64,000 nucleotides of DNA, from contig JBKJLC010000293.1 in the NCBI GenBank assembly GCA_046597055.1, positions 1 to 64,000 on the forward strand. The letters are read 5' to 3'. This document shows, one piece after another, positions 24,858-56,705 of this stretch (position 1 is the first letter of the stretch; each line of letters opens with the position of its first letter). Position numbers and translations under genes: made by a program. Source of the stretch: Kofleriaceae bacterium. Its GTDB lineage: Bacteria > Myxococcota_A > Polyangia > Haliangiales > Haliangiaceae. The notes under the pieces are model-generated. The model worked only from the letters and a program-made list of their open reading frames with translations. It was not told where the DNA came from and searched no databases.

Positions 24858-25406
24858 ATGACCCTCCGCCTCCTCGGCGTCGCCGGCAGCCTGCGCAAGG
24901 GCTCGCTCAACCACGCTCTCCTGCGCGCGATGGGCAAGGCGCTGCCCGACGCGGCCACGCTCGAGATCTTCGACGGGCTCGGCGCGCTCCCCACCTTCGA
25001 CCCCGACGCGACCGGCGAGCCCACCACGGTGACCGCGTGGCGCCAGGCCCTGACCGCGGCCGACGCCGTGGTGATCTCGACGCCCGAGTACAACTACAGC
25101 ATCCCCGGCGTCCTGAAGAACGCGATCGACTGGGCGTCGCGGCCGCCGGCGTCGCCCCTGCGCGGCAAGCCGATGGGCCTGGCCAGCGCGGCGTCGGGCA
25201 TCAGCGGCGGCATGCGCGCCCAGTACCACCTGCGCCAGATCCTGGTGTACACGAACTCGCCCGCCATGCTGCAGCCCGAGGTGATCATCCCGCGGGCGCA
25301 CGAGCGGTTCGACGCCGACGGCGAGCTGGTCGACGTCAGCACCCGCGAGCTGCTGATCAAGTACGGCGTCGAGCTGGTGCGCTGGGTCAAGCGCTTCCAG
25401 GACTGA
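24858..25406 (+). CDS. NADPH-dependent FMN reductase (ChrR/SsuE family)
   Basis: GSLRKGSLN, TPEYNYSIPGVLKNAIDW. Confidence 0.92.
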   Translation: MTLRLLGVAGSLRKGSLNHALLRAMGKALPDAATLEIFDGLGALPTFDPDATGEPTTVTAWRQALTAADAVVISTPEYNYSIPGVLKNAIDWASRPPASPLRGKPMGLASAASGISGGMRAQYHLRQILVYTNSPAMLQPEVIIPRAHERFDADGELVDVSTRELLIKYGVELVRWVKRFQD

Positions 25407-25698
25407 GCGCGTCGCCGGGAATAGCCCTCGGCGCGCGTCCGTTGCACGAGGTCGATGGACCGCATGTCCCCGGCGCGTCTCGCGCTGATCGTCGCCGTCG
25501 TCCGAGGCACCTGGTCGTACTTCACGGTGCCCCCGGGTCGCAGCCCGCCGCCGCGCGTGCCGGTCGTCCTCGCGGCGCTGGGGGACGCGCTCCGCCCGCT
25601 CGGCTTCGAGCGCGAGCGGCGCGCAGCCTGGAAAAGGGTGCGGACGCCGCCCGCCCGACACGACGGTGCGTGCCAGACCGGCGGCGCCCACGGGCAGC

Positions 25699-25848
25699 CT
25701 AGAACTGCATCTTGTCGCAGTCGTCGCCGCCGCCGCCCGAGCACGAGGTCGTGCCAGCGCCGCCGGAGATGGCCGCGAGCTGCTCCTTGGTCAGGGTCTT
25801 GGCCAGGGTGCGGGCGAGGATGCGGGTCGGCTTCTTCTCGTTCTTCAT
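25699..25848 (-). CDS. RiPP precursor peptide, 49 aa (double-glycine leader + graspetide-like core)
   Basis: MKNEKKPTRILARTLAKTLTKEQLAAISGG|AGTTSCSGGGGDDCDKMQF; GGAG RBS; 50 nt downstream of the ATP-grasp gene on the same strand. Confidence 0.85.
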   Translation of the reverse strand: MKNEKKPTRILARTLAKTLTKEQLAAISGGAGTTSCSGGGGDDCDKMQF

Positions 25849-25898
25849 GTTCGTCTCCGTTGTCGTTTGAGATTGCTGCGTGGTTGCGAGTGTCAGTG

Positions 25899-27029
25899 TC
25901 AGCCGGCGGCGACAATTGCAGCGTCGGTGTCGACTGCCGCCGGCCAAGTCGTGTGCTCCACGTGCACGGTCCGCTGCCGCGCGAGGAGGGCGATCGCCTC
26001 GGCCTGGAGCGAGGCGTACCGGACCCGGTCCGAGGTCGCGCGGTACGCGAAGTGCGGCCCCGAGCGCACGAGCTCGATGAACGCGTCGAGCACCGGGATG
26101 TCCGGACAGGTCTCCTCGAGCCACAGCCACTGGCCGCCCTCGTTGACCTCCAGGAACACCATGCGGCCGTCGGGCGTGACCAGGAAGTCGATGCAACCCG
26201 AGACCAACCCGAGCCGCCGCAGGAGCTCGAAGCACCGCGCCTGCAGCGCCGCATCTACCGCGTACGGCTCGACCGGGACCTCGATCCCGCCGCCGCGCCA
26301 GTCGATGATGGCATCGCCATGCTCCTGCGACCGCAGCTTCGCGCCGATGCACGTGCGTCCCAGCAGGGTGAGCCGGAGCTCGAACGCCTTCGGCACCAGG
26401 GGCTGGAAGATGCCCGGGGTCAGGCGCAGCAGTTCGTCGTCGGGGAGACTGGTCTCGTCGACGCGCGACGTGAACGCGTAGGTGATGTGGGCGTCGGTCT
26501 CCCAGATCGCGGGCCTGAACGTCTTGTAGATGGCGTTGCCCTGATGCCGACGCACGAACGCGCGAATGGCGACCGGATCGTTGCTGGCGAGGGTCTCCGG
26601 CACTTCGAGCCCGACCGCGTCCGCCAGCTTGAGCTGGAGGAGCTTGGACCCCGCGGCCCTGGCCCCGGCCGGCGGGTTCACCCAGAACGCCTCCGGGGCC
26701 AGCACGCTGTGGAGCGCCTGTCCGAAGTCCAGACACTCGCCCTCTGCGATCATGCGATCGCCCGGATGCAGGGTGTCCGGCAGGCGGGGCCGTGCCCAGC
26801 GCCGGTTCCACACGGTGTCGATGACCTCGGCGTCGATGCCGGCGCCCGGCCCGTCGATGCGCACCGAGCACTGCTGGTTCGTGATGGTCACCGAGCCGGT
26901 CTGCAACACCGGGAAGTCGCCGCCCAGGAGCACGTGCGGCCGCGAGCCCTTCCGCTCCAGTCCGAGTGCCACCGCGGCGGCATGAATGTCGTTGATCTGG
27001 GTCAGAATCAGAACGTCCGCCATCTCCAT
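25899..27029 (-). CDS. ATP-grasp peptide macrocyclase (graspetide synthetase, MvdC/MvdD-like)
   Basis: DIHAAAV, WNRR, WVNP, SKLLQL, VPETL.SND, IFQPLVPKAFELR, IDWR, IDF...FLEVNEGGQWLWLE. Start could be 27023. Confidence 0.88.
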   Translation of the reverse strand: MEMADVLILTQINDIHAAAVALGLERKGSRPHVLLGGDFPVLQTGSVTITNQQCSVRIDGPGAGIDAEVIDTVWNRRWARPRLPDTLHPGDRMIAEGECLDFGQALHSVLAPEAFWVNPPAGARAAGSKLLQLKLADAVGLEVPETLASNDPVAIRAFVRRHQGNAIYKTFRPAIWETDAHITYAFTSRVDETSLPDDELLRLTPGIFQPLVPKAFELRLTLLGRTCIGAKLRSQEHGDAIIDWRGGGIEVPVEPYAVDAALQARCFELLRRLGLVSGCIDFLVTPDGRMVFLEVNEGGQWLWLEETCPDIPVLDAFIELVRSGPHFAYRATSDRVRYASLQAEAIALLARQRTVHVEHTTWPAAVDTDAAIVAAG

Positions 27030-27383
27030 CAATCACTAGCAGGTCAGTGACATGCTCCACCATGGCTCCGCGCCCATCATGCACGCCGATGCCTCCCGTT
27101 GCCGCCGCGGTGTCATGATTGCCTGATTGGGGCCAGCTCCCAGACTGATCACAACTCGTGCATTGCCGAATTCACATTGCGCGAACACTGCACATGATGC
27201 GCAACACCACCGGATACGCCTTTGCACCGAGGCATACCGTCGAGGCGATGATCGATCGCGGCACCGTGTGCCCGCGCTCCATCGACCGGACCCGGTCGCC
27301 GTCCCACGATCCATCCATGATCGGGCCACATAAACCGGGCGACGCGCGCGGGTCGGGGTCCGCACCGAGCGCACCGTCGTCGA

Positions 27384-27995
27384 TCAGCGCCGCACGCGGC
27401 CGCGCTTCAGCGCCGGTGACACGTCGACGCGCCCGCCCGGCCGACAGGCCACGTCGGTGACCTCCGGCTGATATCCGTCGGCGCGGATCTCGACGCGGCG
27501 CTGCTGGCCCGCAGCGCAGGCCAGGTTGGTGACCAGCGGGGTGCGCCCGGCGGCGACGCCGTCGATGAGCACGGTCGCGCCCCGCGGCGTCGCATTGACC
27601 AGCAGGTACATGGCCTCGTCGGCCGCTGGTGACGGGCCGCGCGCGCCCACGCGTCCGTCGCGCCCGAGCGGCAAGATCAGCTGTCGCCGGTCGATGGCGT
27701 CGTGGAACGCCGGGTAGAAGACGGCGATCACCAGCGCCAGCGCGGCCAGCCCCGTCACGAGTCGCGCCGCGGTCACCCGGGGCCGCTCGGTGCGGTCAGC
27801 GCCCAGGACCGCGGCGGTTGGCACGGTTGGCGCGGTCGCCTGCGCGGGCAACGCTCGCCGCGAGACCGGCACCGGCGGTGCCGGCCCCCGCTGGTGCCGC
27901 GCCTGCGCGTCGAGGATCTCCTCGTCGCGGTCCATGTGAAAGCGACCGGGCTCGCCCGCCGGGTCGGGGTCGTCACCGGGCTTGCGCTCGCTCAT
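27384..27995 (-). CDS. Membrane-anchored PEGA-domain protein
   Basis: ATG overlaps the ATPase stop; one TM; VNATPRGATVLIDG..AGRTPL...IRADGY. Confidence 0.8.
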   Translation of the reverse strand: MSERKPGDDPDPAGEPGRFHMDRDEEILDAQARHQRGPAPPVPVSRRALPAQATAPTVPTAAVLGADRTERPRVTAARLVTGLAALALVIAVFYPAFHDAIDRRQLILPLGRDGRVGARGPSPAADEAMYLLVNATPRGATVLIDGVAAGRTPLVTNLACAAGQQRRVEIRADGYQPEVTDVACRPGGRVDVSPALKRGRVRR

Positions 27996-29494
27996 CCGCA
28001 CACCCGCAGCACCTCGCGCAACGACGTCGCGCCGGTCCTGACCCGCGCGATGCCGGCGTGGAGGAGCGGGATCATGCCCTCGGCGACCGCCGCGTCGTGG
28101 ATCCGCGTCGTCGGCACCTTGGCGTTCACCAGCTCCTGGATCGCCGGCGTCATCGCGAGCAGCTCGTAGAAGGCGATCCGCCCCAGGTAGCCGGTCCGAT
28201 CGCACTTCACGCACCCGGCCGCGCCGTACAGCTGCTCGTCGTGGATCCCGGCCTGCGTCAGGCGTCGCCGCTCGTCCGCGGTGGGCGACGCCAGCACCCG
28301 ACAGTCCGGACACAGCCCGCGCACCAGCCGCTGCGACATGCTCCCCAGCGTCGCCGACGCCAGCAAGAACGGCTCGACCCCCATCTCGATGAGCCGGTTG
28401 AACACGCCGGCCGCCGAGTCGGCGTGGATCGTCGTCACGATCTGATGTCCGGTCAGGCCCGCCTGCACCGCGATGTGCGCGGTCTCCGCGTCGCGGATCT
28501 CGCCGACCATGATGACGTTCGGGTCCTGGCGCAGGATCGATCGCAGGCCGGCGGCGAAGGTCAGCCCGACCCCGGGCTTGACCTGCGTCTGGGTCAGGAA
28601 TGGCAGGTCGAACTCGACCGGATCCTCGATGGTCGCGATCTGCGTGGTCTCGCCGCGGGACTGCTTGATGTGGGCAAGCGACGAGTAGATCGTCGTGGTC
28701 TTGCCGCTGCCGGTCGGTCCGACCAGGAACACGATCCCCTGCGGCCGCGTGAGCATCGCGCGAAACCGCTCGAGCAGGACCGGCGGCACGCCCAGCGCCG
28801 ACAGATCGGGGACGGTGAGCCCGACGTTGGCCACGCGGATCACCGCGCGCTCGCCGTGGTTGGTCGGCATCACCGAGATCCGCAGGTCGGCCGGCCGGCC
28901 CTCGGCGGAGATCACGAAGTGACCGTCCTGGGGCCGGTCGCTCTGGAAGGTCATGAGCTTCGCCATCACCTTCAAGCGCGACACCAGCGGCTTGTGGTGC
29001 GCGCGCGGGAACGTGATGAGCTCGTGCAGCACGCCCTGCACGCGAAACGAGATCTCGGTCCCCTGGGCGAGCGGATGCAGGTGCACGTCGCTGGCCCGAA
29101 CCCGCACGGCGGCCTCGAGCAGGACGTCGACGAACCGGACCATGTCGGGCGCGCTCGCCTCGGCCAGCCGCCGGAGCTCGCCCCGCACCTCGCCGAGCAG
29201 GTCGTGCACGAGGTCGGCGGCCAGCGCATCGATCACGGTGGTGGGGTCCTCCACCGACGCCGGCGCCGGGGCCGGCCGGCGGCGCGCGAGGAGCTGCCCC
29301 GCGATCGCGGTCACCACCACCGCGATCGCCGCCGCGATCACCGCCGCGCTGGCCGCTCGGTGCGAGCCGTACGCCCGGGCCTGCCGCGCCGCGGCGGCAC
29401 CGCTCGAAGGGCGGTAGGCCACCACGAACGCGATCAGCCCGGCCACCAGCGCCAAGCCCGCCAGCACCCAGACCGCCCGTGCCGCTGACCGCAT
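27992..29494 (-). CDS. GspE/PulE/PilB-family secretion ATPase with N-terminal TM helices
   Basis: ASDVH, RPQDG, GPTGSGKTTT, TIEDPVE, LRQDPNVIMVGEIRD, TGH, two CxxC pairs. Confidence 0.9.
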   Translation of the reverse strand: MRSAARAVWVLAGLALVAGLIAFVVAYRPSSGAAAARQARAYGSHRAASAAVIAAAIAVVVTAIAGQLLARRRPAPAPASVEDPTTVIDALAADLVHDLLGEVRGELRRLAEASAPDMVRFVDVLLEAAVRVRASDVHLHPLAQGTEISFRVQGVLHELITFPRAHHKPLVSRLKVMAKLMTFQSDRPQDGHFVISAEGRPADLRISVMPTNHGERAVIRVANVGLTVPDLSALGVPPVLLERFRAMLTRPQGIVFLVGPTGSGKTTTIYSSLAHIKQSRGETTQIATIEDPVEFDLPFLTQTQVKPGVGLTFAAGLRSILRQDPNVIMVGEIRDAETAHIAVQAGLTGHQIVTTIHADSAAGVFNRLIEMGVEPFLLASATLGSMSQRLVRGLCPDCRVLASPTADERRRLTQAGIHDEQLYGAAGCVKCDRTGYLGRIAFYELLAMTPAIQELVNAKVPTTRIHDAAVAEGMIPLLHAGIARVRTGATSLREVLRVCG

Positions 29495-29673
29495 CTCCGC
29501 CACGGTAGCGCACCGGTGATCCCCGGGGCGACCGATGCTGTCAGTCCATTCGCGCCCGTGCCGTGACCACCGTGCCTCGCATGTCAACGAACCACCACGG
29601 CGGTCCGCCCGACTCTTCCAGGTCGTGACCATCGGTTGCCGGACCGTGCTGGGCGTTGCAGGTCATCGGCCGC

Positions 29674-29689
29674 TGGCGTGACTCTCGCA
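29674..29689 (+). promoter_or_regulatory. Possible sigma54 promoter
   Basis: TGGCGTGACTCTCGCA (GG-N10-GC) just upstream of ATG 29703. Confidence 0.35.
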
Positions 29690-29702
29690 AGGACGCCTGG
29701 CC

Positions 29703-31280
29703 ATGAGACTGCTGCCTGGCCTGCTCGCCACCCTCGCCTGGGCGTCGCTGGTCGCCGTGACCGGCTGTGGCGACCCCGTGGACCCGATCGAGCCCGACGC
29801 CGGCGTGGGCGACGAGCTGGTGCGCCAGGAGCTCGAGCCGCCCGGTCGCAACTGTCCGCGCGGTGGCACCGCCACCCACCGCGGCCTCGACGACAACCGC
29901 GACGGCCTGCTGCAGGACGACGAGATCGACGCGACCGCGTACGTCTGCGCGGGCGCCGACGCCGACACCTGGCTGGGCGACTTCACCGCCGCCGACTGGC
30001 TCGACCCCGCCAAGGTGCGAGCCCTCGAGCGCGCACGGGTCGTGACCGGCTCGCTCACGATCGTCGCCAGTGCCACCACCAGCCTGCCCCGGCTCGCGCA
30101 GGTGGCGGGCACCGTGGCCTACCAGTCGACCACCGAGCTGCGGACGCCGCTGACGGTGCCCGCGCTCCGCACCATCGGCGGCGACCTCGTGCTCGCGAAC
30201 GTGGCGACCGAGGGGCTGGCGATGCCGGCGCTGCGCACCATCGCCGGCGACCTGACGATCTCCAGCGCGATGCCCTCGATCACGCTCGACCGGCTGGCAT
30301 CGGTCGGCGGCGGCGTGCTGCTGGTCGACCGCGCGCTCACGACGCTGGCGTTACCGCGCCTCGCGACCATCGGCGGCTCGCTGACGAGCCTCTCGACGGC
30401 CCGGCTGGAGACCCTCGAGCTCGCCAGCCTGCGAGCGGTGGGCGGCCATCTGCAGCTCTCCGACGCGGCGCAGCTGCGACGGGTGTCGTTCCCGCTGCTC
30501 GCGACCGTGCGCGGGGAGGTGTCGATCAGGTCGCTGGCGCGCCTCGACGCCCTCGAGCTGCCCGCGCTCACGGGCGTGGACAGCTGGCTCAGCGTGACCG
30601 CCTGCCCGCAGCTGCGCGCGATCGAGTTGCCTCGACTCGCCGACGTGACAGCGCTGAGCCTCACCGAGAACGCGCGGGTCGAGACCGTCGCCATCCCCGC
30701 GGTGGCCTTGGTGCAGAACCTCCACCTGGAAGCCATGCCGGCGCTGCGCGGCCTCGGGCTCGATCAGCTGGGAGCGATCACCAACGAGCTCCGGCTGCGC
30801 AGCCTGGGCCTCGCCGATCTGACGGGCCTGCGTGGCGTCCGGTCGGTCTCCCACGTCGTCGTGGATGACCTGGACCAGCTGCCGGATCTGCGTGGCCCGA
30901 GCTGGCCGGCGAGCCTCAAGAACGTCCAGATCCGGGGCTGTGCCGCGCTCACGTCGCTGGCCGGGTCGGACGGGCTGGTCCACATCGACGGAGACCTCTT
31001 GCTGCAAGACAATCCGGTCCTGGCGTCGCTGGCGGGGCTCGAGTCCGTGAGCTACGTCGGCGGTGCCCTCGGCATCACGAGCAATCCGGTGCTCTCCGAT
31101 CTCGCCGGGCTGTCCGGACTGAGCTCGATCGGCGGCGGGTTCGAGCTCGATGCCCCGGCGCTCGTCAGCCTCGCCGGCCTCGACGCCCTGCAGTCGCTCG
31201 GTGGCCAGCTCGTGCTCGGCAGCCTACCCGGCGTGCCTCCCGCCGAGCTCGACGCATTCCGCGCACGCGTCGGCCGGTGA
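29703..31280 (+). CDS. Lipoprotein with receptor-L-domain/LRR-like repeats
   Basis: Lipobox VTGC; EPPG.NC..GG...GLDDN.DG.L module; many LP.L..IGG.L and L.SLAGL repeats. Confidence 0.85.
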   Translation: MRLLPGLLATLAWASLVAVTGCGDPVDPIEPDAGVGDELVRQELEPPGRNCPRGGTATHRGLDDNRDGLLQDDEIDATAYVCAGADADTWLGDFTAADWLDPAKVRALERARVVTGSLTIVASATTSLPRLAQVAGTVAYQSTTELRTPLTVPALRTIGGDLVLANVATEGLAMPALRTIAGDLTISSAMPSITLDRLASVGGGVLLVDRALTTLALPRLATIGGSLTSLSTARLETLELASLRAVGGHLQLSDAAQLRRVSFPLLATVRGEVSIRSLARLDALELPALTGVDSWLSVTACPQLRAIELPRLADVTALSLTENARVETVAIPAVALVQNLHLEAMPALRGLGLDQLGAITNELRLRSLGLADLTGLRGVRSVSHVVVDDLDQLPDLRGPSWPASLKNVQIRGCAALTSLAGSDGLVHIDGDLLLQDNPVLASLAGLESVSYVGGALGITSNPVLSDLAGLSGLSSIGGGFELDAPALVSLAGLDALQSLGGQLVLGSLPGVPPAELDAFRARVGR

Positions 31281-40603: not shown

Positions 40604-43588
40604 TCAGGGCGCGGGCAGCCGCTCGAACAGCACGACGCTCGCGGCCCAGCTGGCGGGATCGCGGGCGACGTAGGCGGCGCGCAGCGCGGCGAGCGCGACC
40701 GCGGGCGCCTCGCCGGCCGAGATCCGTCCGCGCAGCTCATCGAAGAACCGGGTCGCCTGATCGTCGGGGATGTCGACGGTCGGCGCCACCACCGCGCGCG
40801 CGCCGGCCTCGACGAACGCATCGGGCAGGCTCCACCGCTTGTGGAGGAAGGGCGCGACCTCGGCGGCGCGACACGCCGCCAGCACGATCACCGGGGCGGC
40901 CGCAAACCGGGCCCGGCGCACCGCCGCCGCGGTCAGCGCCCAGCCACCATCGGCGCCCGGCGACAGCGCGAGGAACGACGCGTCGGCGATGCCGAGGTCG
41001 ACCTTGCCGTGGACGTGCAGCTCGGCGTAGGTCGCGGTGGCCAGCTCGGCGAGCACCCGCGCCGGGGTCGCGTCGGCGCCGCGCAGGGCGATCGCGCCGG
41101 GCGACGCTGGCCGGGGCGCGAGCGCGGGCAGCCCCAGCGCCGGCGGCGGCACCGCGTCGCCGACCACGAGCTCGCGCGGCGCGGCCGCGGTCGCACCCGC
41201 GGCCAACCGCCCCGACGCCCCGGCGACGAACGCCCACGGCAGCTCGACCGGCAGCAGCCCGGCGTGGCCGTGCACCGGCGGTCGCGCGAACACCGCCACC
41301 GACCGGCAGCCGCGCAGCGCCGCCCGCAGCGCCGCGGGCACCAGCGTGGCGTCGTCCCACGCGACCGCGGTGCCGACCTCGGTGTACGCGCCGGTCGCCG
41401 CGCCGTCGGGGCCACGCACGGCGGCGGTGCCGCGGGTGTCGTCGACGCTCACCGCCAGCGCGCACTGCGCCGGCGCCGCCACCCCCAGCTCGCCGGCGAC
41501 CGTGGTCACGACCTCGGCCCACGCACCGCGCCGGCCGGCGTCGTCGACCATCGTCGCGTAGATCCATCCGCGCTGCACGTCGTCGCCGTCGCGGGTCGCC
41601 GCCTGCGCCAGCTGGCGCAGGCGCGCCACCGCGCCCGGGTCCCGCTCGAGGTCGAGGCGCGCGCGCGCGACCTCGCGGGTCAGCCGCACCGCCGGATCGT
41701 CGACCTCCGCGGCCGCCGCCAGCCACAGCTCGGCCCGGGCCCGGTCGGCCGGGCTGCCCGACATGCGCGCGCGATCGACGAACGCGATCAGCTCGAGCGG
41801 GGCCGGATCGACCCCGCAGTCGCGCGGGCCCGGCAGCTCGACCGGGAGCGGCGCCGCGCTGGTGTAGATGTCGGTGAGCGCCAGGCCGATCGTCGCGAAC
41901 CGCGCGGTCGCGCAGACATCGCCGGCGCGGGCGCGCACCTCGGCGAACGTGGCCTGCGCCAGCGCCACTCGATCGCGGCCGCGCTGGTACTCGGCCAGCA
42001 GCCCGAGCGCGTGATCCTCGAGCGAGGGCGCGCCCGCCGCCGCGAAGTCGCGGACCGCGATCACCGCGTGCTCCTCGGCCTCGGGGAAGCGCGCGACCTC
42101 GCCGTAGAGCTGCGCCAGGTCGAGCGCCAGCGCGCCGCACCGGTGCGCCCAGGCCCGGGCGTCGCACCCGGCGAGCCCCGCGCGCAGGTGGGTCTCCGCG
42201 CGATCATCATCGCCGCGGTCGCGCATGTGCCGGGCCTGCTCGCGCACGGCGAGGAGCCCGAACCACGGGTCACCGGTGGCGACGGCGAGCCGGGTGAGGT
42301 CGGCCAGCCGGGTCTGGCTGGCGCCGGTCAGCATGATCGCGCCGAGCAGGAGGTCGGCCACCGCGGGCCCGGCCCGGTCGAGCCTCGCGACCAGCGCGGC
42401 ACCGTCGGCCGGCTGCGCGCGGCCGCGCGCCAGCTCGCGGTAGGCGCCCGCCAAGGGCGCGCGCGTCTGGAAGCTGGCGGCGGCCACGCGGTCGACCGCC
42501 CGCCGCGCGGCGTTGGTGCCGGCCAGGCGGTCGAGCTCGTCGGCGAGCGGGCCCAGCGCGAGCGCCTGGTCCCGGCTGATCGCGGCCCGGAGCGCGTCGT
42601 GGAAGTAGAGGCGGGTCAGCCCCGGCCGCTGCCGGGCGTGCTCGGCGGTGAGCGGCGGACCGGTGCGGTCGATCATCGCCTGGGCGGCGGCGTTGAACGC
42701 GAGCAGCCCCTCCGCGCGCCGGAGCATGGGCGCGCGCAGGCTCTGCGCCCGCGCCCGCGCCTCGTCGGACCAGCCCGGCTCGCCAGCGGCGGCGACCTGG
42801 TCGAGCTCACCGGCGGCGGTCAACGCCAGGCCCAGCTCGCGCAGCGCGAGCCCGCGGTTCCAGCGCGCCGCCACCAGCGTCGGCGCGGCGGCCAGCGCGC
42901 GATCGGCGGCCGCCAGCGCATCCTCGGGACGACCGGCCAGCACCGCGAGCGCGGCCAGATCGGCGTCGCGCGCGGGTGCCGGCGGCATCGCCTCGAGCAC
43001 CTGGCGAGCGCGGGCCAGCTCGCCGCTGGCCGCGTGCGCCGCCAGCAAGCTCGCGCGATCGCCGCGGCGTTCGAGATCGGCGAGCACCTGCAGCGACACG
43101 GCTTCGTGGCTGGCCTGGCTGCGGCTGACCACGTAGGGCCGGTGCCGCGCGAACGGCTCGGCGGTGAACCGGACCTCGACCGCGCGCTGCTCGGCGAGCG
43201 CGAGCGCCAGCGCGGGCGCCTCCACGAACGCGGGCGCCTTGCCCACCGCGGGCTCACGGCCAACCCGGCCCACCAGCAACACGCCCGCCGCCGCCGCCAG
43301 CGCCACCCCGACCAGCGGGACCGCCCGGCGCCAGCGGCCGCTCGCCGCGCGCGGCGCTGGCCGCGTCACGATCGAGGCCGCCGGCGCCATCGCGGCCTTG
43401 CCGGCGAGCACGGTGTCGAGCCCGACCAGATCGCCGAGCTCGTGCTGACAGCGGGTGCAGGTCGCGAGGTGGCGCAGCGCCGCGGCCTCCTGGTCGGGCC
43501 GCAGCTCGCCGTCGAAGTAGCGCGCGACCTGCGCGTGCGGATCGGCGATCGGTTCGCTCATTGGATCGCTCCCGGATCGGTCACTCAT
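40604..43588 (-). CDS. zf-HC2 anti-sigma / TM / TPR-like / CHAT (caspase-like) fusion protein
   Basis: HLATCTRC; hydrophobic helix; ARWNRGLAL; CHAT ELHVHG and VLAAC. Confidence 0.85.
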   Translation of the reverse strand: MSDRSGSDPMSEPIADPHAQVARYFDGELRPDQEAAALRHLATCTRCQHELGDLVGLDTVLAGKAAMAPAASIVTRPAPRAASGRWRRAVPLVGVALAAAAGVLLVGRVGREPAVGKAPAFVEAPALALALAEQRAVEVRFTAEPFARHRPYVVSRSQASHEAVSLQVLADLERRGDRASLLAAHAASGELARARQVLEAMPPAPARDADLAALAVLAGRPEDALAAADRALAAAPTLVAARWNRGLALRELGLALTAAGELDQVAAAGEPGWSDEARARAQSLRAPMLRRAEGLLAFNAAAQAMIDRTGPPLTAEHARQRPGLTRLYFHDALRAAISRDQALALGPLADELDRLAGTNAARRAVDRVAAASFQTRAPLAGAYRELARGRAQPADGAALVARLDRAGPAVADLLLGAIMLTGASQTRLADLTRLAVATGDPWFGLLAVREQARHMRDRGDDDRAETHLRAGLAGCDARAWAHRCGALALDLAQLYGEVARFPEAEEHAVIAVRDFAAAGAPSLEDHALGLLAEYQRGRDRVALAQATFAEVRARAGDVCATARFATIGLALTDIYTSAAPLPVELPGPRDCGVDPAPLELIAFVDRARMSGSPADRARAELWLAAAAEVDDPAVRLTREVARARLDLERDPGAVARLRQLAQAATRDGDDVQRGWIYATMVDDAGRRGAWAEVVTTVAGELGVAAPAQCALAVSVDDTRGTAAVRGPDGAATGAYTEVGTAVAWDDATLVPAALRAALRGCRSVAVFARPPVHGHAGLLPVELPWAFVAGASGRLAAGATAAAPRELVVGDAVPPPALGLPALAPRPASPGAIALRGADATPARVLAELATATYAELHVHGKVDLGIADASFLALSPGADGGWALTAAAVRRARFAAAPVIVLAACRAAEVAPFLHKRWSLPDAFVEAGARAVVAPTVDIPDDQATRFFDELRGRISAGEAPAVALAALRAAYVARDPASWAASVVLFERLPAP

Positions 43589-55304: not shown

Positions 55305-56705
<1,401 letters not shown>

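What the first reader, a model, noticed from the sequence alone, without database searches (positions are those of the whole stretch)
25699..27135. Minimal graspetide RiPP locus with a double-glycine leader and a Cys-containing core
Seen: an ATP-grasp ligase with graspetide-synthetase motifs, followed after 50 nt by a 49-aa ORF with its own GGAG RBS, hidden at the end of a long spurious ORF. The leader ends LTKEQLAAISGG; the core is AGTTSCSGGGGDDCDKMQF. Established: graspetide ligases join Thr/Ser/Lys side chains to Asp/Glu, and L(S/T)xxEL-like...GG leaders are cut by C39-peptidase transporters. The microviridin PFFARFL leader and TxKYPSD core are absent. Inference: the donor block TTSCS and acceptor block DDCD, separated by a Gly4 turn, could form a hairpin of nested ester crosslinks. 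The two Cys would face each other, allowing a disulfide or Cys-Asp thioester. RILARTLA may be the enzyme-recognition motif. No protease or exporter is adjacent, so processing would be in trans. A weak sigma54-like site (TGGCCCCAATCAGGCA, minus strand, 27120-27135) lies upstream. Best candidate here for an undescribed system.
Basis: partly seen in the sequence, partly recalled or inferred. Interest (0 to 1): 0.88.

Follow-up and report, generated by a model that had tools for sequence, protein, structure and literature searches.

The report
Two-gene group 8 graspetide locus
A soil bacterium carries a small two-gene cassette (an ATP-grasp ligase and its 49-residue substrate peptide) that should make a cross-linked peptide of an already catalogued but apparently chemically unstudied family, notable mainly for its compact cysteine-bearing core.

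Summary
On the minus strand an intact 377-aa ATP-grasp ligase (25899-27032) is followed after 50 nt by a 49-aa ORF (25699-25848) with a GGAG 6 nt before its ATG. The ligase is a graspetide synthetase homologue (MdnB 5IG8, E 1.9e-42). The peptide's leader passes the curated double-glycine model TIGR01847.

A leader profile finds such peptides beside 78 of 87 ligase homologues and in 0 of 5,738 reversed decoys. A complex model puts leader residues 8-21 on the ligase (score 0.71, best control 0.00).

The locus is not an undescribed system. It belongs to graspetide Group 8. Near-identical cores (GG-TTSCSCGG[AP]DDCD) are listed as Group 8 in the supplement of Carter et al. 2026.

The twin locus in Paraliomyxa miuraensis carries HlyD and a C39 peptidase ABC exporter. 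The window's genome holds their reciprocal-best homologues (53-56% and 41% identity) on another contig, so processing in trans is plausible.

The sigma-54-like site is at chance level. The ester topology and the role of the two Cys remain untested.

Verdict: a new member of a known kind. One lead is worth following: the same S-C-S...D-D-C core recurs in published Groups 8, 25 and 41.

The parts
25899..27032 (-). Graspetide synthetase (ATP-grasp ligase), 377 aa including the TTG start; stop codon included in the coordinates
   Evidence: ORF and GC3 0.92. TIGR04187 2.8e-55, MvdC 7.3e-49, MvdD 8.5e-47, all below their curated cut-offs. PF21068 MvdD pre-ATP-grasp domain 29.9 bits against a cut-off of 27. 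PDB hits MdnB 5IG8 1.9e-42, MdnC 5IG9 5.5e-37, AMdnB 7M4S, CdnC 7MGV, 9BOU, PsnB 7DRM. 117 homologues.
25699..25848 (-). Precursor peptide, 49 aa: leader residues 1-30 (recognition stretch about 8-21, double-glycine G29-G30) and core 31-49, AGTTSCSGGGGDDCDKMQF
   Evidence: Sequence. TIGR01847 18.5 bits against a cut-off of 15.7. Leader HMM E 2e-10. Alignment with 23 relatives. It is the only copy in the genome, E 1.6e-20.
25849..25898 (-). 50-nt spacer between ligase and precursor, with GGAG at 25858-25855, 6 nt before the ATG
   Evidence: Read directly from the sequence.
27033..27383 (.). Intergenic stretch upstream of the ligase, where G+C falls to 0.575-0.62; presumed promoter region, with no promoter identified
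   Evidence: Composition profile. There is no sigma-70-like hit on the minus strand and no terminator-like site. The upstream gene ends at 27387 (PEGA-domain protein).
27120..27135 (-).
   Evidence: It has 3 mismatches to the consensus. The window has 90 such sites against 117 +/- 13 expected.

Best explanation
This is a two-gene biosynthetic cassette for a Group 8 graspetide. The steps below are inferred from the family, unless marked as shown. (1) The 49-aa precursor is translated from its own ribosome-binding site. (2) Its leader stretch T8-K21 (RILARTLAKTL) docks on the middle part of the ATP-grasp ligase. (3) The ligase uses ATP to phosphorylate side-chain carboxylates of D42, D43 and/or D45. 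Hydroxyls of T33, T34, S35 or S37 attack, giving two or three omega-ester (macrolactone) rings across the Gly-rich turn and so a small covalently stapled hairpin. (4) C36 and C44 stay free or form a disulfide after export. (5) An NHLM-like C39-peptidase ABC exporter and its HlyD-like partner, encoded on another contig (C245), cut after G29-G30 and export the 19-residue product. Shown here: ligase family, precursor family, leader conservation, gene order, and the existence and homology of the unlinked exporter pair. Not shown: any cross-link, its topology, cleavage, export or bioactivity.
For: The ligase is a graspetide synthetase homologue. The precursor carries a curated double-glycine signature. 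Leader-HMM hits lie within 2.5 kb of the ligase in 78 of 87 loci: 91 hits, of which 71 are upstream on the same strand, 19 downstream on the same strand and 1 other; 0 of 5,738 reversed decoys match. Eight of the 87 loci (window, L030, L078, L089, L090, L092, L093, L094) carry the compact core T/S-x-S/T-C...DD[CS]D, always downstream of the ligase. The window ligase forms a clade with L089, L090, L091 and L092 at SH-aLRT 100. L030 (Paraliomyxa) and L040 (Legionella erythra) are the same entries that Carter et al. 2026 file under Group 8. Complex model: score 0.71, best of 3 controls 0.00. That mark was reached by 116 of 157 solved complexes and 2 of 215 mismatched pairs. The runs agree in at least 57% of contacts and the partner pLDDT is at least 51. 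My own alignments were used, so these counts hold only roughly. In the model, precursor residues 8-21 touch ligase 169-207, and core residues 32-36 and 42-45 touch ligase 16-17, 78, 297, 301 and 303-304. The twin locus L030 reads ligase, precursor, GAF+HlyD, C39-ABC exporter. The window's genome has a PCAT at C245:12628-15000 that is 53% identical over residues 15-801 of 807. Its best match in the Paraliomyxa genome (56%, next best 43%) has coordinates that fit the exporter of that cluster. The adjacent HlyD-like gene is 41% identical over 446 aa, E 1e-86. Published background: donors are Ser/Thr/Lys and acceptors Asp/Glu, via an acyl phosphate. GG motifs and C39 transporters are common in graspetide clusters.
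Against: No exporter, protease or other tailoring gene lies in window 12-43 kb. The genome is a bin with 7.55% contamination, so contig C245 may not belong to the same organism. The ligase scores below every curated NCBIfam cut-off. The complex pass may come from likeness to solved ligase-leader complexes. The published statement that the microviridin leader binds the middle subdomain was seen. The leader HMM was seeded from the same ORF set that it then searched, and at least one hit looks false (L017, 1.6 kb downstream). Only 3 of 24 aligned precursors match TIGR01847 at E up to 0.01. The ligases of L030 and L078, which have the most similar cores, do not group with the window ligase in the tree. 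Nothing tests whether esters form.
Confidence: 0.7

Rival explanations
1. The cysteines are part of the chemistry rather than bystanders. Either the ligase joins a Cys thiol to an Asp carboxylate (a natural thioester/thiolactone), or the Cys and Asp side chains form a metal-binding site held in shape by the ester staples.
For: C36 and C44 are kept in 7 of the 8 compact cores; L092 has DDSD with its Cys shifted. Relatives carry 3 or 4 Cys, an odd number that disulfides alone cannot use up. The same S-C-S..(C)..D-D-C core appears with unrelated leaders in published Groups 8, 25 and 41. Carter et al. state that some synthetases can form non-native thioester linkages. A Zn-tetracysteine RiPP family (cysimiditides) exists; I saw only its search listing.
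Against: The window core and L078 have only two Cys, because the central Cys is replaced by Gly. This weakens a metal site in this copy. No natural graspetide thioester turned up in my searches. No metal-related gene is adjacent.
Confidence: 0.15
2. The cassette is an orphan fragment: a recently acquired or rearranged ligase-precursor pair cut off from its exporter. It yields at most an intracellular, leader-bearing product with no function.
For: No orthologue was found in the 30 relatives searched. The three other genomes with a match (two of the 16 congeners, one of the same order) reach only 32-34% identity. The left flank (ABC1 kinase, FMN reductase) is 77-81% identical at nucleotide level in six congeners. 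In two congeners a weak DUF7151-like stretch follows FMN reductase after about 0.8 kb, which suggests that window 25.4-29.7 kb is an inserted or rearranged block. HlyD, PCAT and the ChaN/Tiki-like gene that accompany relatives are all unlinked here.
Against: Both ORFs are intact. The ligase has host-like GC3 of 0.92 and keeps every column that is invariant in 26 homologues. The RBS and spacing are intact. Makarova et al. note that the C39 peptidase is typically not encoded in ATP-grasp loci.
Confidence: 0.1
3. The 49-aa ORF is a chance reading frame and the ligase acts on some other substrate.
For: It lies inside a 461-aa spurious ORF in a 72% G+C genome, where long chance ORFs are common.
Against: Leader and core are conserved beside distant ligases. 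The curated double-glycine model is passed. The complex model passes. No other copy or alternative precursor exists in the genome.
Confidence: 0.02

Closest known systems
Graspetide Group 8 (Lee et al. 2020 group 8; Makarova et al. 2022 precursor cluster 75; Carter et al. 2026 data set), e.g. the Paraliomyxa miuraensis cluster WP_266215262.1 and Enhygromyxa salina WP_106391303.1
   Same: The leader is the same: basic N-terminus, R-[IV]-L-x-R-x-L-A..E-[EQ]-L..x-G-G. The ligase family is the same (44% identity to the Paraliomyxa ligase). The core is nearly the same, TTSCS.GG.DDCD, and the precursor lies downstream of the ligase.
   Different: The window core has Gly in place of the central Cys, so 2 Cys instead of 3. 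The HlyD and C39-ABC exporter genes that follow the precursor in Paraliomyxa are not adjacent here; they lie on another contig. The ligase clade of the window (with L089-L092) is separate from that of Paraliomyxa in the tree.
Microviridin synthetases MdnB/MdnC (Group 1; PDB 5IG8, 5IG9)
   Same: ATP-grasp fold with the MvdD pre-ATP-grasp domain. They are the best solved homologues (E 1.9e-42 and 5.5e-37). The leader is said to bind the middle subdomain, as in the model.
   Different: There is no PFFARFL leader and no TxKYPSD core. There is one ligase instead of two. The MvdC and MvdD models score 166.6 and 159.9 bits against cut-offs of 425 and 475. No acetyltransferase is present.
Pre-fuscimiditide / ThfB (Group 13)
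   Same: According to the abstract of PMC12291112, the product is a stem stapled by two esters around a loop. This is the kind of hairpin proposed here. TIGR04187 is the best NCBIfam hit of the ligase.
   Different: The score is 187.7 bits against a cut-off of 350. No PIMT-type O-methyltransferase lies in window 12-43 kb. The loop would be 4-5 residues rather than 10. The leader is different.
Double-glycine leader peptides exported by C39-peptidase ABC transporters (class II bacteriocins, NHLP/NHLM systems)
   Same: The leader passes TIGR01847. The candidate exporter's best model is TIGR03796 NHLM_micro_ABC1, and a HlyD-like partner is present.
   Different: TIGR03796 scores 632 bits against a cut-off of 853. 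The cargo is an ATP-grasp-modified peptide. The exporter is unlinked.

Membership tests
Graspetides (RiPP class) | Ligase of the MvdC/MvdD-type ATP-grasp family | tested here: met
   TIGR04187/04185/04184 at E 1e-47 to 1e-55; PF21068 above its cut-off; MdnB E 1.9e-42.
Graspetides (RiPP class) | Adjacent small precursor with a leader and a core rich in Ser/Thr/Lys donors and Asp/Glu acceptors | tested here: met
   The core has T33, T34, S35, S37 and K46 as donors and D42, D43 and D45 as acceptors.
Graspetides (RiPP class) | Side-chain omega-ester or omega-amide cross-links in the product | not testable with these tools
   This needs mass spectrometry after co-expression.
Graspetides (RiPP class) | Leader peptide recognised by the ligase | tested here: inconclusive
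   The complex model scores 0.71 against 0.00 for the best control, and the leader is conserved. This is a model only, and it may reflect memory of solved complexes.
Graspetide Group 8 | Synthetase groups with published Group 8 synthetases | tested here: met
   L030 and L040 are entries labelled Group 8 in the supplement of Carter 2026. The window ligase is 44% and 38% identical to them and sits among them in the 83-row tree, which is rooted at the midpoint only. The published similarity network (alignment score 70) was not re-run.
Graspetide Group 8 | Leader of the type R-[IV]-L-x-[RY]-x-[LM]-A ... G-G (Makarova cluster 75) | tested here: met
Graspetide Group 8 | High co-occurrence with an NHLM-type peptidase transporter (Carter 2026, section 7) | tested here: not met
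   None lies in window 12-43 kb. A homologous HlyD+PCAT pair lies on contig C245. The paper describes co-occurrence as frequent, not universal.
Microviridins (Group 1) | PFFARFL leader, TxKYPSD core, MvdC and MvdD equivalogs | tested here: not met
   The motifs are absent. Scores are far below the cut-offs.
Graspimiditides (Group 13) | TIGR04187-type ligase together with a PIMT-type O-methyltransferase | tested here: not met
   The ligase scores 187.7 bits against a cut-off of 350. No methyltransferase is among the 18 neighbouring ORFs scanned.
Double-glycine leader peptides | Match to TIGR01847 bacteriocin_sig above its cut-off, ending in GG | tested here: met
   18.5 bits against 15.7, residues 17-30. 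Among 24 aligned relatives, only 3 match at E up to 0.01.

The most novel reading that the evidence does not exclude
The compact S-C-S...D-D-C core recurs with unrelated leaders and synthetases in published Groups 8, 25 and 41. It may be a shared functional module whose cysteines are chemically engaged. One option is a natural ATP-grasp-made Cys-Asp thioester (thiolactone), which would be the first natural one in graspetides. The other is an ester-stapled Cys/Asp metal-binding knot. The two-Cys window variant would then be the minimal form and the best one for dissecting this.
Probability: 0.15. Interest if true: 0.7.

Novelty: new member of a known kind. Interest (0 to 1): 0.35.

Why it matters
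I found no experimental characterisation of any Group 8 graspetide in the open literature searched. The two founding papers could not be read. A 19-residue core with only three Asp, four hydroxyl donors and two Cys is about the smallest substrate on which the ring pattern of this group could be solved. It would also show whether the conserved cysteines do chemistry. The locus further illustrates that a graspetide cassette can work, if it does, with an exporter encoded elsewhere. This matters for genome-mining rules that score neighbouring transporters. Otherwise it is an ordinary, already catalogued kind of RiPP cluster.

Tried and rejected
- Sigma-54 promoter: the site is at chance level. The genome has 80 matches to the sigma-54 activator domain, and activator genes lie next to the clusters in L059 and L089. 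Sigma-54 control is therefore not excluded, but this site is no evidence for it.
- Simple scans found no sigma-70-like site on the minus strand and no terminator-like site.
- Expression: no RNA holder listed; no reads were laid.
- Second ligase or second precursor in the genome: none. The only other ligase match is E 4.4e-5 at 29% identity, and the only precursor match is the window's own.
- The compact Cys core was not seen in the 74 more distant metagenome loci L095-L168.
- The motif TTSCS is absent from the Makarova 2022 supplements. Attempts to tie the ChaN/Tiki-like neighbour to their 'cluster 23' by motif search found nothing.
- The literature search for 'OEP8' or 'group 8 graspetide' returned only unrelated chloroplast papers.
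- Lee 2020 and Ramesh 2021 are not held. The PDF supplement of Carter 2026 is not held. Statements there about Group 8 could bear on novelty.
- Monophyly of the compact Cys core on the ligase tree is rejected as a simple story: at least 2 origins are forced by well-supported branches, and L078 sits on a long branch of 1.81.
- Earlier notes of this scan: nothing found by place or by sequence.
Full report
**What is there**

The window has 72% G+C. On the minus strand, ORF 25899-27032 encodes a 377-aa protein with GC3 of 0.92. Its stop codon is followed by a 50-nt spacer. The spacer carries GGAG at 25858-25855, 6 nt before the ATG at 25848. A 49-codon ORF then runs to the TAG at 25701-25699.

The small ORF is the tail of a 461-aa open frame (25699-27084) that overlaps the ligase gene in another frame.

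Upstream of the ligase lies a 350-nt gap (27033-27383) in which G+C drops to 0.575-0.62. Beyond it are a 203-aa PEGA-domain protein (27387-27995; PF08308, 33.3 bits) and a type II/IV secretion ATPase (27992-29632). Downstream, on the other strand, are an FMN reductase, an ABC1-type kinase and MsrA. None of the 18 large ORFs scanned between 12 and 43 kb is a peptidase, an ABC exporter with a C39 domain, a HlyD protein or a methyltransferase.

**The enzyme**

The ligase matches three ATP-grasp ribosomal-peptide maturase models of NCBIfam: TIGR04187 (2.8e-55), MvdC (7.3e-49) and MvdD (8.5e-47). It scores below each curated cut-off, so it belongs to the superfamily but to none of those named subfamilies. 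Pfam's MvdD pre-ATP-grasp domain is passed at 29.9 bits against 27.

The nearest solved structures are MdnB (5IG8, E 1.9e-42), MdnC (5IG9), AMdnB (7M4S), CdnC (7MGV), 9BOU and PsnB (7DRM).

**The peptide**

Residues 17-30 match the curated double-glycine leader model TIGR01847 at 18.5 bits against a cut-off of 15.7. The microviridin motifs are absent.

**Relatives**

- The protein search gave 117 homologues. The best non-self hit is 65% identical and all others are 55% or less.
- A scan of one genome per species found 578 relatives among 604 pattern matches. I kept the best 80. They are mostly Thermoanaerobaculia and other Acidobacteriota, Myxococcota, Legionella, Ideonella and Lysobacter.
- A metagenome scan found 119 relatives among 469 matches. 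Six of them, L089-L094, are 51-60% identical.

I collected 5,738 small ORFs within 2.5 kb of the ligase in 87 loci: 80 genome loci, 6 metagenome loci and the window. I built a leader HMM from 73 seeds chosen by a regular expression. It hit 91 ORFs in 78 of the 87 loci and 0 of 5,738 reversed decoys. Of the 91 hits, 71 lie upstream on the ligase strand, 19 downstream on that strand and 1 elsewhere.

Three caveats apply. The seeds come from the same ORF set. At least one hit (L017, 1.6 kb downstream) looks false. Several of the nine loci without a hit are cut by contig ends.

In an alignment of 24 precursors, R9 is invariant and L11 and A16 are kept in at least 90%.

**The core subtype**

Eight of the 87 loci carry a compact Cys-bearing core, and in all eight the precursor lies downstream of the ligase:

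| Locus | Source | Core |
|---|---|---|
| Window | | TTSCSGGGGDDCD |
| L030 | Paraliomyxa miuraensis | TTSCSCGGPDDCD |
| L078 | Bryobacteraceae | TTSCSGGQADDCD |
| L089 | | TTSCSPCADDCD |
| L090 | | TTSCCPCADDCD |
| L092 | | TTCSPCCDDSD |
| L093 | | VTCCPCADDCD |
| L094 | | TSCCPCADDCD |

Three Asp residues and a Thr/Ser cluster are constant. The Cys count runs from 2 (window, L078) to 4.

For the ligase tree I used 83 rows. L062, L081, L093 and L094 were dropped because their ligase fragments are shorter than 300 aa. The window groups with L089, L090, L091 and L092 at SH-aLRT 100. L030 and L078 fall elsewhere, so the core type needs at least two origins on well-supported branches. L078 sits on a long branch.

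**Where it stands in the literature**

- Makarova et al. 2022 (PMC8939145; I read sections 5 and 6 and searched the supplements) report GG motifs in about half of graspetide precursors. They find a C39-peptidase ABC transporter to be the most frequent associated family, and note that the peptidase is typically not encoded in the ATP-grasp locus.
- Their supplement files Legionella and Janthinobacterium precursors with this leader type under cluster 75, which is 'known' as Lee et al. 2020 group 8. TTSCS does not occur there.
- Carter et al. 2026 (PMC13097080; I read sections 5 and 7 and searched supplementary file 2) list 21,584 predicted precursors in 43 groups. All six precursors that contain TTSCS are labelled Group 8: Paraliomyxa miuraensis, Enhygromyxa salina (two), Nannocystaceae (two) and one Acetobacteraceae.
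- The Paraliomyxa entry has the same sequence as my L030 peptide, and its coordinates agree to within one base. The Legionella erythra entry is my L040.
- The paper states that Group 8 co-occurs highly with NHLM-type transporters.

The family and even this core type are therefore catalogued. I found no report of a characterised Group 8 product in the held library. I could not read Lee 2020, Ramesh 2021 or the PDF supplement of Carter 2026.

**Processing in trans**

In L030 the order is ligase, precursor, a GAF+HlyD protein and a C39/ABC exporter. The exporter's best model is TIGR03796 NHLM_micro_ABC1 at 593 bits, below its cut-off of 853.

The window's assembly has C39 domains above the Pfam cut-off in six places. 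The exporter at C245:12628-15000 is 53% identical to the Paraliomyxa one over residues 15-801 of 807, and the next best is 37%. Searched back, its best match in the Paraliomyxa genome is 56% identical (next 43%). The coordinates, 111157-113277, fit the exporter of that cluster as computed. That the contig is the same one is my inference.

The gene before the C245 exporter is HlyD-like and 41% identical over 446 aa to the Paraliomyxa HlyD (E 1e-86). No ligase or precursor lies beside this pair.

A third accessory gene also recurs. It is a ChaN/Tiki-like protein of about 345 aa that follows the cluster in both L030 and L089; the two copies are 36% identical over 262 aa (E 8e-50). Its single homologue in the window's genome lies on contig C11 (38% identity, E 2.4e-36) and has a lipoprotein-like N-terminus.

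The bin has 7.55% contamination, so whether these contigs belong to one organism is unproven.

**Binding model**

The ligase alignment A1 was folded with the precursor alignment A3.

- The score is 0.71 and the best of 3 controls is 0.00.
- That mark was reached by 116 of 157 solved complexes and 2 of 215 mismatched pairs.
- The runs agree in at least 57% of contacts, and the partner pLDDT is at least 51.
- My own alignments were used, so these counts hold only roughly.

Precursor residues 8-21 sit on ligase residues 169-207. Core residues 32-36 (GTTSC) and 42-45 (DDCD) lie near ligase residues 16-17, 78, 297, 301 and 303-304. Complexes of related ligases with their leaders have been solved; the published statement on the microviridin leader was seen. 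The pass therefore shows likeness, not proof.

**Origin in this genome**

None of the 30 relatives searched, 16 of them congeners, has an orthologue. The three that match at E up to 1e-20 are 32-34% identical.

The left flank (ABC1 kinase and FMN reductase) is 77-81% identical at nucleotide level in six congeners. In two congeners a weak DUF7151-like stretch (33-34% over 58 aa) follows FMN reductase after about 0.8 kb. In the window that gene starts at 29703. Window 25.4-29.7 kb may thus be an inserted or rearranged block. The evidence for this is thin.

**Mechanism and what remains open**

By analogy with the family, the ligase should phosphorylate Asp carboxylates and join them to Thr/Ser hydroxyls. 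With three Asp facing a T-T-S-x-S block across a Gly-rich turn, this would give two or three nested or overlapping lactones. Published precedents for this kind of hairpin are plesiocin and pre-fuscimiditide (abstract).

Which residues pair cannot be derived from sequence. However, relatives with three Cys cannot use them all in disulfides.

The supplement of Carter et al. shows the same S-C-S..(C)..D-D-C core behind unrelated leaders in Group 25 (Nitrospirota, Chitinophagaceae) and Group 41 (Thermoanaerobaculia, Acidobacteriota, Burkholderiales). This hints that the core is a selected module whose cysteines matter. That is the most novel reading still open, and I give it about 0.15.

**Verdict**

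The locus is a new member of a known, catalogued kind (Group 8), with an unlinked exporter and a minimal two-Cys core. Interest is moderate to low.

Noticed in passing
Published data (Carter et al. 2026, supplementary file 2), not the window: The compact core S-C-S-[GP]-[GC]-(C)-x-D-D-C occurs behind unrelated leaders in graspetide Groups 8, 25 and 41. Three Cys is the commonest count.
   Followed up: partly
L030:11953-12984 and L089:6293-7336; own genome G000:C11:38714-39460: A ChaN/Tiki-like protein of about 345 aa (weak PF04187 match) follows the cluster in two relatives; the two copies are 36% identical, E 8e-50. Its single homologue in the window's genome is unlinked and looks like a lipoprotein.
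   Followed up: partly
L059:4643-6289 and L089:7382-8752; window 55722-56222: Sigma-54 activator genes lie convergent to the graspetide cluster in two relatives. The window's genome has 80 matches to the activator domain, and the nearest is 30 kb from the locus.
   Followed up: partly
window 25400-29700: The block holding the precursor, the ligase, the PEGA-domain protein (27387-27995) and the T2SSE ATPase (27992-29632) may be inserted or rearranged relative to congeners. In two of them FMN reductase is followed after about 0.8 kb by a weak DUF7151-like stretch.
   Followed up: partly
window 27992-27995: The stop of the secretion ATPase gene overlaps the start of the PEGA-domain protein gene, which suggests translational coupling.
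   Followed up: no
G000:C190:6105-9821: A second C39-peptidase ABC exporter, 37% identical to the Paraliomyxa one, lies directly after a sigma-54 activator gene on another contig. Its cargo was not sought.
   Followed up: no
window 40604-43588: A 994-aa protein combines an N-terminal zf-HC2 (anti-sigma-like) motif with a C-terminal CHAT protease domain.
   Followed up: no
L055, L047, L070, L081 (Legionella loci): Several Legionella Group 8 loci carry two or three precursors with different cores, some of them with 2-3 Cys, on both sides of the ligase.
   Followed up: no
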